Shown: one piece after another, positions 50,096 to 55,475 of the stretch | Layout: every line of letters starts with the position of its first letter | Numbering within the stretch: position 1 is the stretch's first letter | NCBI RefSeq assembly: GCF_001677475.2 | Contig: NZ_CP015229.1 | Length of the DNA stretch: 64,000 bases | Strand: one strand, 5' to 3' | Source of the DNA: Escherichia coli | GTDB taxonomy: Bacteria > Pseudomonadota > Gammaproteobacteria > Enterobacterales > Enterobacteriaceae | Position numbers and translations under genes: made by a program | The notes under the pieces: generated by a model | Databases searched by the model: none | What the model saw: only the letters and a program-made list of their open reading frames with translations | What the model was told of the DNA's origin: nothing

Positions 50096-50526
50096 ATTTT
50101 GCCCTCAGACTGGCGCGTGAGATGGGGAGGCCTGACTGGCGCACCATGCTTGCCGGGATGACATCCACCGAATATGCCGACTGGCACCGTTTTTACCGCA
50201 CGCATTATTTTCACGATACCCAGCTGGATATGCATTTTTCCGGGCTGACGTACACCGTACTCAGCCTGTTTTTTTGCGATCCGGATATGCATCCGGCGGA
50301 TTTCAGTCTGCTTGCACCCCGACGTGATGATGAGCAGACGGAGATGCCGGATGAGGACGATATGCTGATGCGGAAAGCGGCAGGACTTTCTGGTGGTGTC
50401 CGCTTTGGGGCTGACGGGAAGGAAATCGTTACGGTCAGTGATGACATGCGGAGCAGTACAGAGGATGAAGCCATGCTGATGATGGTGTCTGAGGGAATTC
50501 CAGGAGGTGTACGCTATGGCGGGTAA
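49664..50526 (+). CDS. T: Tail assembly chaperone G-T fusion via -1 programmed frameshift
   Basis: ORF 50122..50526 is in the -1 frame relative to G; slippery heptamer G GGA AAG at 50071-50077 sits in the lambda-type zero-frame register. Confidence 0.6.
50071..50077 (+). promoter_or_regulatory. -1 programmed ribosomal frameshift slippery site (GGGAAAG) for G-T
   Basis: Seen in sequence; canonical lambda G-T slippery heptamer near the 3' end of G. Confidence 0.6.
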
Positions 50527-52615
50527 TTTTGCCGATCTGACAGCTGTTCTTACACTGGATTCAACCCGTTTTTCTGAAGAGGCTGCACGGGTAAAGAAAG
50601 AACTGGGTGAAACCAGTGACCTTGCGGATTTGATGGCCGGGCGTGTCAGCCAGTCTTTTAAGAAACAGGCCACTGCCGTTGAACAGGGGCTGAGCCGTCA
50701 GGCGCTGGCTGCACAAAAAGCCGGGATTTCCGTCGGGCAGTATAAAGCGGCCATGCGTACCCTGCCTGCACAGTTTACGGATATCGCCACGCAGCTTGCC
50801 GGTGGTCAGAATCCCTGGCTGATCCTGCTGCAACAGGGCGGTCAGGTGAAGGACGCCTTCGGCGGGATGATCCCCATGTTCAGGGGGCTTGCCGGTGCGA
50901 TCACCCTGCCGATGGTCGGGGTCACCTCGCTGGCGGTGGCGACAGGTGCGCTGGCGTATGCCTGGTACCAGGGGGATTCCACGCTTTCAGCGTTTAATAA
51001 AACCCTGGTTCTTTCCGGTAATCAGTCCGGACTGACTGCCGATCGCATGCTGACGCTCTCCAGAGCCGGACAGGCAGCAGGGCTGACGTTTAACCAGGCG
51101 AGTGAGTCACTGGCAGCCCTGGTGAATGCCGGTGTGCGTGGTGGTGAACAGTTTGATGCCATCAACCAGAGTGTGGCGCGTTTTGCTTCTGCATCCGGTG
51201 TGGAAGTGGACAAGGTTGCAGAGGCTTTTGGAAAGCTGACCACCGACCCGACGTCGGGACTGATGGCTATGGCGCGCCAGTTCCGTAACGTGACGGCAGA
51301 GCAGATTGCGTATGTTGCGCAGCTGCAGCGTTCGGGGGATGAGGCAGGGGCCTTACAGGCGGCGAACGATATCGCCACAAAAGGCTTTGATGAGCAGACC
51401 CGTCGCCTGAAAGAAAACATGGGGACGCTGGAAACCTGGGCGGATAAAACCGGGAAGGCATTCAAATTGATGTGGGATGCCATCCTGGATATCGGTCGTC
51501 CTGAATCCTCAGCGGATATGCTCGCCAGTGCGCAGAAGGCATTTGATGAGGCGGATAAAAAATGGCAGTGGTACCAGAGCCGGAGTCAGCGTCGGGGAAA
51601 GACCTCCTCTTTCCGTGCCAACCTTCAGGGTGCATGGGATGACCGTGAAAATGCCCGTCTGGGGCTGGCGGCAGCCACGCTGCAGTCGGATATGGAAAAA
51701 GCCGGTGAACTGGCGGCAAGGGACCGGGCTGAGCGTGAGGCGTCACAGCTGAAGTATACCGGAGAGGCGCAGAAGGCGTATGAGCGCCTGCTGACGCCAC
51801 TGGAGAAATATACTGACCGGCAGGAAGAGCTGAATAAGGCCCTGAAAGACGGGAAAATCCTGCAGGCGGATTACAACACGCTGATGGCGGCGGCGAAAAA
51901 GGATTATGAATCGACGCTGAAAAAACCGAAGTCGTCAGGTGTCAAAGTGTCAGCCGGGGAGCGTCAGGAAGACCGGGCGCATGCAGCCATGCTGGCGCTT
52001 GAAACTGAGCTCAGGACGCTGGAGAAGCATGCCGGTGCGAATGAGAAAATCAGCCAGCAGCGCCGGGATTTGTGGAAGGCGGAGAGTCAGTTCGCGGTAC
52101 TGGAGGAGGCGGCGCAACGTCGCCGGCTGTCTGCACAGGAGAAATCCCTGCTGGCGCATAAAGACGAGACGCTGGAGTACAAACGCCAGCTGGCTGACCT
52201 GGGCGACAAGGTTGAACATCAGAAACGGCTGAATGAGCTGGCACAGCAGGCGGCGCGGTTTGAACAGCAGCAGAGCGCGAAGCAGGCCGCCATCAGCGCA
52301 AAAGCCCGCGGCCTCACCGACCGTCAGGCGCAGCGGGAGTCGGAAGAGCAGCGCCTTCGTGACGTGTACGGTGATAATCCGGATGCGCTGGCGAAGGCCA
52401 CATCTGCACTGAAGAACACCTGGTCTGCGGAGGAGCAGCTTCGTGGAAGCTGGATGGCCGGGCTGAAATCCGGCTGGGGTGAGTGGGCGGAAAGTGCCAT
52501 GGACAGTTTTTCGCAGGTTAAAAGCGCGGCCACGCAGACCGTTGACGGTATTGCACAGAATATGGCGGCGATGCTGACCGGCAGTGAACAGAACTGGCGC
52601 AGCTTCACCCTATGA
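50516..52615 (+). pseudogene. H: Tape-measure protein H, N-terminal ~700 codons (interrupted by IS21-family element)
   Basis: ORF 50507..52615 ends FTL* exactly at the IS left terminus; the H frame resumes after the IS. Confidence 0.8.
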
Positions 52616-52703
52616 GACGACAATAACTCAGTCCGCCTGGCGCCGATTATTCTGGCCGGTTTTGTAACCTGAGTGTCATTTACATGATCCAACAGGAAAT
52701 GGC

Positions 52704-54203: not shown

Positions 54204-54955
54204 GCAATATCCATCACCTTGAACATAGCCTGCGTAAACTACGCCTGACACGAGTTGGAGCTGAATGGCACGCTCTGGAAAAACGAGCGCTGGCAGAAGG
54301 CTGGACACCATCGCGCTATCTTCTGACGCTATGCAATGAAGAACTCCTGTGGCGCGAGAGTGAAAAACTGCGTCGTTATAAAAAGGAGGCCCGGTTGCCA
54401 GTTGCCAAAACGCTGAGCGAATACGACTTCAGTCAGGTGCCGGAACTGAATGGAGCTCAGTTCCGGCAACTCTGTGAAACGACAGACTGGGTTGATGCAG
54501 GAGAAAACGTTCTGCTGTTCGGAGCCAGCGGGTTGGGGAAAAGCCATCTGGCGGCAGCGATCGTGGATGGCGTAGTAGGTCAGGGCTACCGGGCCCGGTT
54601 CTACAGCGCAGGAGAGCTGTTGCAGGAACTACGTAAAGCCAGAGCTCAGTTGAAACTGAATGAGCTGCTACTGAAACTGGATCGCTACCGGGTGATAGTG
54701 GTGGATGATCTTGGCTATGTCAAACGCGATAGTGCCGAAACGGGTGTGCTGTTCGAGTTAATAGCGCATCGCTATGAACGTGGGAGCCTGGTGATAACCA
54801 GTAACCATCCGTTCAGCATGTGGGGCAGCATCTTCGTGGATGAGACTATGGCGGTGGCTGCGGCAGACAGGCTGATCCATCACGGATATATGTTCGAACT
54901 GAAAGGGGAAAGCTACAGGAAAAAGACAGCGAAGGCAGTAACAAGCGCGACTTGA
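54200..54955 (+). CDS. istB: IS21-family ATP-binding helper IstB
   Basis: 251-aa ORF; Walker A (GASGLGKSH), Walker B (VIVVDDLGY); 4-bp overlap with istA. Confidence 0.9.
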   Translation: MSNIHHLEHSLRKLRLTRVGAEWHALEKRALAEGWTPSRYLLTLCNEELLWRESEKLRRYKKEARLPVAKTLSEYDFSQVPELNGAQFRQLCETTDWVDAGENVLLFGASGLGKSHLAAAIVDGVVGQGYRARFYSAGELLQELRKARAQLKLNELLLKLDRYRVIVVDDLGYVKRDSAETGVLFELIAHRYERGSLVITSNHPFSMWGSIFVDETMAVAAADRLIHHGYMFELKGESYRKKTAKAVTSAT

Positions 54956-55007
54956 TGTCGCCCTGAAGGGTGCGGCCAGTATAGTTGGCGCGAGTCGGCA
55001 AAACTAG

Positions 55008-55475
55008 TTGACGTCTAATATCACCCGTTCCGTGCTGTCCATGATGACAGAAATTCTGCTTAAGCAGGCAATGGTGGGGATTGTCGGGAGTATCGGTAGT
55101 GCCATTGGGTTTGCCGGTGGTGGTTTTACAGGTACTGGCGGCAAATACGAGCCTGCGGGGATTGTTCACCGTGGTGAATTTGTCTTCACGAAGGAGGCAA
55201 CCAGCCGGATTGGCGTGGGGAATCTTTACCGGCTGATGCGCGGCTATGCCACCGGCGGTTATGTCGGTACACCGGGCAGCATGGCGGACAGTCGGTCGCA
55301 GGCGTCCGGGAAGTTTGAGCAGAATAACCATGTGGTGATTAATAACGACGGCACGAACGGTCAGATAGGGCCACAGGCGCTGAAGGCTGTTTATGACGTA
55401 GCCCGTAAGGCGGCAATGGATGTCGTGACCGGGCAGATGCGTGATGGTGGTCTGTTCTCCGGAGGTGGGCGATGA
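55008..55475 (+). pseudogene. H: Tape-measure protein H, C-terminal ~150 codons (downstream of IS)
   Basis: In-frame continuation ...SNITRSVLSMMTEILLKQAMVG... with Gly-rich tail; ends overlapping M start. Confidence 0.7.

What the first reader, a model, noticed from the sequence alone, without database searches (positions are those of the whole stretch)
50516..55475. IS21-family element cleanly splits the tape-measure gene H
The IS (52611-55020) has imperfect terminal inverted repeats and a 6-bp direct repeat TCACCC; removing the IS and one repeat copy restores a continuous H frame (...RSFT|RSVLSMMTEILLK...). H was therefore intact before insertion and the prophage is very likely tail-defective now, even though its other structural genes look intact.
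Basis: seen in the sequence. Interest (0 to 1): 0.55.

Follow-up and report, generated by a model that had tools for sequence, protein, structure and literature searches.

The report
ISEc10 insertion splitting prophage tape-measure gene
A well-known mobile element of E. coli (ISEc10, IS21 family) has jumped into the tail-length "tape measure" gene of a lambda-like prophage and cut it in two. This is an ordinary and already understood way for resident prophages to be disabled.

Summary
Window 52611-55020 is a complete 2410-bp copy of ISEc10 (IS21 family). It has intact istA (499 aa) and istB (251 aa), 48-nt imperfect terminal inverted repeats, and a 6-bp target duplication TCACCC.

Removing the IS and one TCACCC copy gives 2553 bp that are 100% identical to the uninterrupted 847-aa tape-measure gene of the same prophage in E. 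coli 08-00022. That prophage sits at the same potC/potB site. The gene was therefore whole before insertion, and the event looks recent.

The gene is a true lambda H homologue (76% identity). The break corresponds to lambda gpH T681/R682, inside the conserved Tape_meas_lam_C domain. The truncated product lacks the C-terminal 149 aa, including the helix that anchors gpH to gpI in the lambda tail tip. A tail-assembly defect is thus a well-founded inference, but it was not tested.

The other 16 head and tail proteins compared, from the small-terminase-like protein to I, are full length. J, however, lacks the usual C-terminal receptor-binding part, in both strains. NCBI's annotation pipeline (PGAP) marks the 08-00022 allele as a pseudogene, so the prophage may already have been non-infectious.

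Novelty: none. This is a known element doing a known thing.

The parts
49664..50095 (+). Tail assembly chaperone gene G. It carries the lambda-type slippery heptamer G GGA AAG at 50071-50077.
   Evidence: 100% identical to gpG of the 08-00022 prophage. The heptamer was read, and the -1 frame is open into T.
50122..50526 (+). Tail assembly gene T (the G-T frameshift partner)
   Evidence: 100% identical to 'phage tail assembly protein T' of 08-00022.
50516..52610 (+). 5' fragment of tape-measure gene H (codons 1-698). Translation runs one codon into the IS (CTA, Leu) and stops at the TGA at 52613-52615.
   Evidence: tblastn shows 100% identity over residues 1-698 of WP_052934433.1. ORF 50507..52615. 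Pfam TMP_2 covers residues 65-267.
52605..52610 (.). Left copy of the 6-bp target-site duplication TCACCC
   Evidence: The empty-site allele has a single copy: the two blast segments overlap by 6 bp in L005.
52611..55020 (+). Complete ISEc10 (IS21 family), 2410 bp, in the same orientation as the late operon
   Evidence: Full-length matches at 98.5-99.9% identity in 560 E. coli records, annotated 'IS21-like element ISEc10 family'. It is the only copy in the window.
52611..52658 (+). Left terminal inverted repeat (IRL)
   Evidence: I1: 48 nt, 71% complementary to 54973-55020. The end is invariant in 7 contexts.
52704..54203 (+). istA, the IS21-family transposase (499 aa, GTG start), intact
   Evidence: NF033546 at 226 bits against a cut-off of 160. 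495/499 residues identical to the CFT073 IstA. Pfam Mu-transpos_C_2 covers residues 311-366.
54200..54955 (+). istB, the AAA+ helper ATPase (251 aa), intact. Its GTG start overlaps the istA stop (GTGA).
   Evidence: NF038214 at 267 bits against a cut-off of 200. 250/251 residues identical to the CFT073 IstB. The Walker A motif GASGLGKS and the Walker B motif VIVVDDLG were read in the translation.
54973..55020 (-). Right terminal inverted repeat (IRR). It contains an outward-facing TTGACG hexamer at 55008-55013.
   Evidence: I1. The end is invariant in 7 contexts.
55021..55026 (.). Right copy of the target-site duplication TCACCC
55027..55475 (+). 3' fragment of H (codons 699-847), now without its own promoter or a recognisable ribosome-binding site. 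The in-frame ORF from the TTG at 55008 starts inside the IRR.
   Evidence: No promoter-like site reads out of the IS on the + strand.
55472..57787 (+). Downstream tail-tip genes M, L, K and I, all intact. The M start overlaps the H stop (ATGA).
   Evidence: 100% protein identity and full length against 08-00022.
58265..61519 (+). J (central tail fibre, 1084 aa). This variant lacks the usual C-terminal receptor-binding region.
   Evidence: 92% identical to lambda J over residues 1-849. Homology to other J genes stops at about window 61357. The phrog_31 match ends at profile position 1270 of 1565. The matching allele is flagged as a pseudogene in 08-00022.

Best explanation
A single, complete and probably still active copy of ISEc10 (IS21 family) transposed into codon 698/699 of the lambda-type tape-measure gene H. 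The host element is a lambdoid prophage integrated between potC and potB.

Mechanism, as inferred from what is known of the IS21 family: the IstA DDE transposase binds the terminal repeats, and the IstB AAA+ ATPase delivers the target DNA. Staggered cuts 6 bp apart are then filled in, which produces the TCACCC duplication.

Consequence: H translation now ends one codon inside the IS (...RSFTL*). The product is a 699-aa protein without the C-terminal 149 residues. The lost part includes half of the Tape_meas_lam_C domain, the hydrophobic and glycine-rich segment, and the terminal helix that in lambda docks on gpI in the tail tip. The 3' fragment has no promoter or Shine-Dalgarno sequence of its own.

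The prophage therefore most likely cannot build tails. The insertion is recent, because both H fragments are still 100% identical to an intact allele and the IS reading frames are intact.

Shown: the anatomy, the identity of the element, and the empty site. Inferred: the transposition chemistry and the tail-less phenotype.
For: - IS identity and integrity.
- Exact ends, conserved in 7 independent contexts, with 6-7 bp duplications.
- Terminal inverted repeats.
- Empty-site allele, 100% identical over 2553 bp with a single TCACCC.
- Same prophage at the same integration site, with a 99.6-99.9% identical late region.
- H is a lambda gpH homologue; the break is at lambda residue 681/682, within Pfam Tape_meas_lam_C (residues 644-718).
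- Lambda gpH residues 818-849 are bound to gpI in the tip: PMC10721106, PMC12617516.
- A tape-measure C-terminus is required for infectivity in TP901-1: PMC5099701.
- ISEc10 has been seen to transpose in the laboratory, with new insertions next to lpp in CFT073: PMC7482066.
- No outward promoter-like site precedes the 3' H fragment.
Against: No phenotype was measured. Three points weaken the causal reading.

- The functional state of the 'intact' reference prophage in 08-00022 is itself unknown.
- J in both strains lacks the usual C-terminal domain.
- The window also has a frameshift in a lysis-region ORF and a fragmented ant gene.

The IS may therefore have landed in a prophage that was already non-infectious, rather than being the lesion that disabled it.
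Confidence: 0.93

Rival explanations
1. The IS insertion is real but was functionally neutral. The prophage was already unable to form infectious particles, mainly because J had lost its C-terminal receptor-binding domain. ISEc10 then simply accumulated in a decaying prophage.
For: - The J ORF loses homology to all other J genes at about 61357 and ends about 50 aa later. No phage record matches its last ~50 aa.
- The phrog_31 alignment stops at profile position 1270 of 1565.
- PGAP marks the matching allele in 08-00022 'incomplete; missing C-terminus'.
- The arrangement is rare, found in 7 of 5426 genomes.
- There is an extra frameshift at about 37645 and a fragmented ant gene.
Against: The other 16 head and tail proteins compared are full length, and 15 of them are 100% identical between two hosts whose chromosomal flanks differ by about 4%. 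That pattern suggests recent horizontal spread of a working phage. The two ORFs after J belong to phage protein families (phrog_2427, phrog_4062), and a side tail fibre follows. The short J could therefore be part of an alternative, functional receptor-binding module rather than a truncation.
Confidence: 0.4
2. The two halves of H still work in trans. The IS cuts H close to the natural gpH* / gpHC processing boundary, so a gpH*-like 699-aa protein plus a separately translated 144-155-aa gpHC-like fragment could assemble into functional tails.
For: The break corresponds to lambda residue 681/682. Lambda gpH is naturally cleaved at roughly residues 690-710 into gpH* and gpHC (PMC12617516). An in-frame ORF covering the whole 3' fragment exists (55008-55475).
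Against: In lambda the cleavage happens after tail assembly, so the covalent link is present while the protein acts as a ruler anchored in the tip (PMC12617516). The break lies inside a 38-residue block that is invariant between this protein and lambda gpH, and inside the Tape_meas_lam_C domain. There is no promoter-like site, and no Shine-Dalgarno-like sequence is visible upstream of the TTG, GTG or ATG candidates at 55008-55044.
Confidence: 0.03
3. Assembly artefact: an IS copy from elsewhere in the genome was wrongly placed inside H by the assembler.
For: IS elements are classic sources of misassembly, and ISEc10 can be multi-copy, with up to 14 places per genome.
Against: A perfect 6-bp target duplication flanks the element. 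Its length equals that seen at other ISEc10 sites. An independent draft assembly contig carries the identical IRR-TCACCC-H junction.
Confidence: 0.02

Closest known systems
ISEc10 (IS21 family) of Escherichia coli, e.g. the copies in CFT073 (NC_004431.1 1234406-1236815)
   Same: Same length (2410 bp) and identical terminal sequences. The istA/istB organisation is the same, with the GTGA overlap. DNA identity is 98.5%, and IstA and IstB match at 495/499 and 250/251 residues. The target duplication is 6 bp.
   Different: Only the insertion site differs. This H::ISEc10 junction is absent from 5426 complete E. coli genomes and from the GTDB species representatives. It is present in one draft assembly. 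The closest copies, at 99.8-99.9% identity, are in strains OkiPb01695 and RM9088.
Bacteriophage lambda gpH (tail tape measure protein, NP_040595.1)
   Same: 76% identity over the full length. The gene order is the same (V-G-T-H-M-L-K-I-J), as are the G-T slippery site and the domains (TMP_2, Tape_meas_lam_C).
   Different: 847 aa against 853 aa. This protein has a shorter glycine-rich linker and a small N-terminal insertion, and here it is interrupted after residue 698 (lambda residue 681).
IS-disrupted lambdoid prophages of E. coli in general, including other ISEc10 insertions in tail genes
   Same: ISEc10 also interrupts the tape-measure gene of a related prophage in OkiPb01695 (about 110 codons further downstream), another tape-measure gene in strain 510016, the tail tube gene V in N96, and a tail gene of plasmid pe1-39_A.
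   Different: These are independent events at different sites with different duplications. None shares the window's junction.

Membership tests
IS21 family insertion sequence (ISEc10) | A long IstA transposase (DDE type with an N-terminal HTH) | tested here: met
   NF033546 transpos_IS21 equivalog at 226.4 bits against a cut-off of 160, covering profile positions 2-293 of 294. 99% identical to the annotated ISEc10 IstA. The catalytic residues were not mapped individually.
IS21 family insertion sequence (ISEc10) | A second, downstream gene istB encoding an AAA+ helper ATPase, closely coupled to istA | tested here: met
   NF038214 IS21_help_AAA at 266.7 bits against a cut-off of 200. The Walker A motif GASGLGKS and Walker B motif VIVVDDLG are visible. 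The istB GTG overlaps the istA TGA at 54200-54203.
IS21 family insertion sequence (ISEc10) | Imperfect terminal inverted repeats at both ends | tested here: met
   48-nt arms, 71% complementary, located exactly at the ends. The ends are invariant in 7 copies.
IS21 family insertion sequence (ISEc10) | A short target-site duplication (4-8 bp in this family, figure recalled from memory) | tested here: met
   6 bp here (TCACCC). Four other ISEc10 copies have 6-7 bp duplications.
IS21 family insertion sequence (ISEc10) | Terminal 5'-TG...CA-3' dinucleotides, typical of many IS21 members (recalled from memory) | tested here: not met
   The ends read 5'-TATGAGACG... and ...CGTCTAATA-3'. The outermost bases are TA/TA, and this holds in all 7 copies examined. 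This is a property of ISEc10 as such and not of this copy, so it does not affect identification as ISEc10.
IS21 family insertion sequence (ISEc10) | Demonstrated mobility | not testable with these tools
   New ISEc10 insertions near lpp were selected in CFT073 (PMC7482066). The activity of this particular copy is unknown, although both ORFs are intact.
Lambda-type tail tape measure protein (gpH) | Sequence and domain homology to gpH | tested here: met
   TIGR01541 at 327.5 bits against a cut-off of 104.75. Pfam TMP_2 at 2e-68 and Tape_meas_lam_C at 2e-20. 76% identity to lambda gpH.
Lambda-type tail tape measure protein (gpH) | Position after the G/G-T frameshift chaperone pair and before M-L-K-I-J | tested here: met
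   Gene order. The slippery heptamer G GGA AAG lies at 50071-50077, with an open -1 frame into T.
Lambda-type tail tape measure protein (gpH) | A continuous reading frame, i.e. a functional gene | tested here: not met
   The frame is interrupted after codon 698 by the 2410-bp IS. It is continuous only after in-silico excision.

The most novel reading that the evidence does not exclude
The most novel reading not excluded is that the IS has, by accident, produced a 'pre-cleaved' tape measure. It cuts H only about 10-30 residues upstream of where lambda gpH is naturally processed into gpH* and gpHC. The two fragments, if both were made, might still assemble. That would offer a natural experiment on whether covalent continuity of gpH is needed for tail-length measurement.

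A second, weaker lead is that ISEc10 sits in phage tail genes in five independent records, always co-oriented with the tail operon. This could hint at a target or orientation preference in phage late operons. However, eight other sites showed no such orientation bias.
Probability: 0.03. Interest if true: 0.5.

Novelty: already known. Interest (0 to 1): 0.1.

Why it matters
It matters little beyond annotation. The two H fragments should be annotated as one IS-disrupted pseudogene, the element should be named ISEc10, and the prophage should be scored as very probably unable to make tails.

The case is a clean textbook example: an exact empty-site allele exists in another strain. It could serve as a strain marker, or as a ready-made pair (08-00022 against the source strain) for testing what loss of the gpH C-terminus does. 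It opens no new biological question.

Tried and rejected
1. I looked for the same insertion elsewhere.
   - No complete E. coli genome of 5426 has it. The two '≥80% coverage' hits, N96 and OkiPb01695, were different ISEc10 insertions near or in tail genes that the tool had joined.
   - An exact junction 32-mer was absent from the GTDB species representatives.
   - Exact-protein look-ups of the truncated N-terminal product found nothing.
   - The C-terminal fragment look-up found one 1.1-kb draft contig with the identical right junction.

2. I tested whether ISEc10 has an orientation bias relative to the genes it hits. The first 7 of 8 sites were co-oriented, but 8 further sites were 2 co-oriented and 6 opposed. 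The overall count is therefore about 9 to 7, and the idea was dropped.

3. I looked for an outward promoter that could drive the 3' H fragment or M. None was found on the + strand. The TTGACG hexamer in the IRR has no suitable -10 hexamer at 16-18 bp in this context (read).

4. I considered whether the short J was a frameshifted full-length J. It is not: the two downstream ORFs match unrelated PHROG families rather than J.

5. Pfam did not report an rve/DDE domain for IstA, only Mu-transpos_C_2. The NCBIfam family model did give a full-length match.
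Full report

- The H reading frame runs from 50516 (ATG; an upstream GTG lies at 50507) to 52610. It then reads CTA TGA inside foreign DNA.
- The foreign DNA spans 52611-55020 (2410 bp). It begins TATGAGACGACAA... and ends ...TTGACGTCTAATA.
- Its ends form the longest inverted repeat in the region: 48 nt at 71% complementarity, 52611-52658 against 54973-55020.
- The hexamer TCACCC lies immediately outside both ends, at 52605-52610 and 55021-55026.
- Inside are two same-strand ORFs of 499 and 251 aa, whose stop and start overlap as GTGA.

**Identity of the element.** It is ISEc10, a known member of the IS21 family.

- The 499-aa protein matches the NCBIfam IS21 transposase model above its curated cut-off (226 bits against 160). 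The 251-aa protein matches the IstB helper ATPase model (267 bits against 200).
- The whole 2410 bp matches 560 E. coli records end to end at 95-99.9% identity. All listed matches are annotated 'IS21-like element ISEc10 family'.
- IstA and IstB differ from the CFT073 proteins at 4 and 1 residues respectively, and both are full length.
- There is only one copy in the window.
- ISEc10 is a known, mobile element. New insertions next to lpp were selected in CFT073 (PMC7482066), and it has been reported in the afa promoter region of ST131 (PMC8764528).

**Boundaries.** I aligned both junctions of six other ISEc10 copies lying in unrelated contexts: CFT073, RM9088, WP2-S18-ESBL-08, N96, OkiPb01695 and 510016.

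- Similarity starts and stops at exactly the same bases as in the window.
- Four of the six have clean duplications of 6 or 7 bp (GTCTTC, GGTCACC, CAGAAC, ATCAGCG).
- One differs by a single missing G, and one has no duplication; that copy lies next to the istB gene of another IS21-like element.

**Empty site.** This is the decisive test.

- A search of 5426 complete E. coli genomes with 50507-55475 found one genome, strain 08-00022 (NZ_CP013662.1), that matches both flanks at 100% as two abutting pieces spanning 2553 bp.
- The in-silico excision product (window 50507-52610 plus 55027-55475) is identical, base for base, to that stretch. It contains the annotated 847-aa 'phage tail tape measure protein' WP_052934433.1.
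- The two blast segments overlap by exactly the 6 bp of the duplication.
- H was therefore a continuous gene before the insertion. Neither fragment has acquired a single substitution relative to that allele, which points to a recent event.

**Context.**

- The window carries a lambdoid prophage integrated between potC and potB. Its integrase is at 17920-19038, and the prophage runs past the end of the window. The 08-00022 prophage is colinear with it and sits at the same site.
- The late region is 99.87% identical upstream of the IS (40037-52610) and 99.63% identical downstream (55021-64000).
- The small-terminase-like protein, TerL, portal, the protease/capsid fusion, the head-tail connectors, Z-like, U, V, G, T, M, L, K and I are all full length. 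All are 100% identical at protein level except TerL, at 99.6%.
- The lambda-type G-T slippery heptamer G GGA AAG is present at 50071-50077, with an open -1 frame into T.

**What is broken.**

- The restored protein is 76% identical to lambda gpH over its whole length. It has the TMP_2 (residues 65-267) and Tape_meas_lam_C (residues 644-718) Pfam domains and matches TIGR01541.
- The break after residue 698 corresponds to lambda T681/R682. It lies in a 38-residue block that is invariant between the two proteins and inside Tape_meas_lam_C.
- The product that can still be made is 699 aa (...NWRSFTL*).
- The missing 149 residues include the hydrophobic stretch, the glycine-rich linker and the C-terminal helix. 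In lambda, residues 818-849 form the trimeric coiled coil held by gpI in the tail tip (PMC10721106, PMC12617516). In TP901-1 the last 60 residues of the tape measure are required for infectivity (PMC5099701).
- The 3' fragment has an in-frame ORF starting at a TTG inside the right inverted repeat (55008). No promoter-like site faces it, and I see no Shine-Dalgarno sequence ahead of any candidate start.
- Tail assembly is therefore very probably blocked. This is inference, not observation.

**A coincidence worth recording.**

- Lambda gpH is cleaved after tail assembly into gpH* (about residues 1-690/710) and gpHC (PMC12617516). The IS cuts the gene just upstream of that zone.
- Cleavage follows assembly, and the break destroys a conserved domain. 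I therefore give the idea that the two pieces still work only about 3%.

**Caveat on 'other structural genes look intact'.**

- J (58265-61519, 1084 aa) is 92% identical to lambda J over residues 1-849 and still J-like up to about residue 1031-1063.
- DNA homology to the J genes of over 3000 E. coli genomes stops at about window 61357.
- No phage record matches its last ~50 residues, whereas the one homologue inspected, PhiR40_1 J (1232 aa), continues for about 200 more residues.
- The phrog_31 alignment ends at profile position 1270 of 1565.
- The matching allele in 08-00022 (1 difference in 1073 aa) is annotated 'incomplete; missing C-terminus'.
- Behind J lie two ORFs of unknown-function phage families and a side tail fibre gene. 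The arrangement occurs in only 7 of 5426 genomes.
- Either this is an unusual but working receptor-binding module, or J lost its receptor-binding domain before the IS arrived. In the second case the prophage was already non-infectious and the H insertion was neutral. I put that at about 40% and cannot resolve it with sequence alone.
- Two smaller lesions point the same way. An extra G at about 37645 frameshifts the ORF between the holin and lysozyme genes relative to 08-00022. A 1-kb segment between lysozyme and Rz holds a fragmented ant gene.

**Distribution.**

- The junction is absent from the complete E. coli genomes and from the GTDB species representatives.
- A 1096-bp contig of draft assembly GCA_002516285.1 starts inside the right inverted repeat and carries the identical IRR-TCACCC-H junction. 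This is what a short-read assembly of the same or a sister strain would look like. It also argues against misassembly.

**Side enquiry.**

- ISEc10 interrupts tail genes in four other records: H in OkiPb01695, another tape-measure gene in 510016, V in N96, and a tail gene on plasmid pe1-39_A. In each it is co-oriented with the tail operon.
- Eight further sites were 2 co-oriented and 6 opposed, so there is no general orientation bias.
- The tail-gene cases were partly selected by my own query, which included the H flanks. I make no claim from them.

**Verdict.** It is an ordinary insertion of a known IS into a prophage gene, so interest is low.

Noticed in passing
window 58265-62688: The J gene (1084 aa) loses homology to all other J genes at about 61357 and lacks the usual C-terminal receptor-binding domain. 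Two phage ORFs of unknown function follow it (61529-61900, phrog_2427; 61897-62688, phrog_4062), and then a side tail fibre gene starting at 62779. The same arrangement is present in E. coli 08-00022, where PGAP calls J a pseudogene. It is found in only 7 of 5426 genomes.
   Followed up: partly
window ~37645 (ORF region 37347-37989): One extra G relative to the 08-00022 prophage frameshifts the 213-aa hypothetical ORF between the holin and lysozyme genes. This could be a real mutation or a sequencing error.
   Followed up: partly
window 38980-40037: A segment of about 1 kb, absent from the 08-00022 prophage, lies between the lysozyme and Rz genes. It holds pieces of an Ant anti-repressor gene (39248-39403 and 39607-39816, phrog_524) split over different frames. 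It is apparently a decayed accessory gene.
   Followed up: partly
window 1-17900 versus 40037-64000: The chromosomal flank (mfd, ndh, lolCDE, and on to potD/potC) is only 97.7% identical to the best of 5426 complete E. coli genomes. The prophage late region, in contrast, is 99.6-99.9% identical to that of strain 08-00022. The host seems to be an outlying Escherichia/Shigella-like lineage that shares a very recently exchanged prophage.
   Followed up: no
L003 4311-9494; L004 3507-5916; L002 2001-4410; L013 about 3001-5419: ISEc10 interrupts phage tail genes in four other E. coli records: the H gene in OkiPb01695 (that copy is itself split by ISEc49), another tape-measure gene in 510016, tail tube gene V in N96, and a tail gene on plasmid pe1-39_A. 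In each it is co-oriented with the tail operon. Eight other sites showed no orientation bias (2 co-oriented, 6 opposed).
   Followed up: partly
window 55008-55013 and 52611-52630: The right end of the IS carries an outward-facing TTGACG hexamer 7 bp from the tip, and the left end has GACAAT about 8 bp in. If two ends were abutted, as in the tandem or circular junctions described for IS21 (recalled from memory), they would form a -35/-10 pair with a spacing of about 17 bp. This was not tested.
   Followed up: no
window 50071-50077: The lambda-type programmed -1 frameshift heptamer G GGA AAG lies at the end of gene G, with the -1 frame open into T. The G/G-T chaperone system therefore appears intact.
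   Followed up: yes
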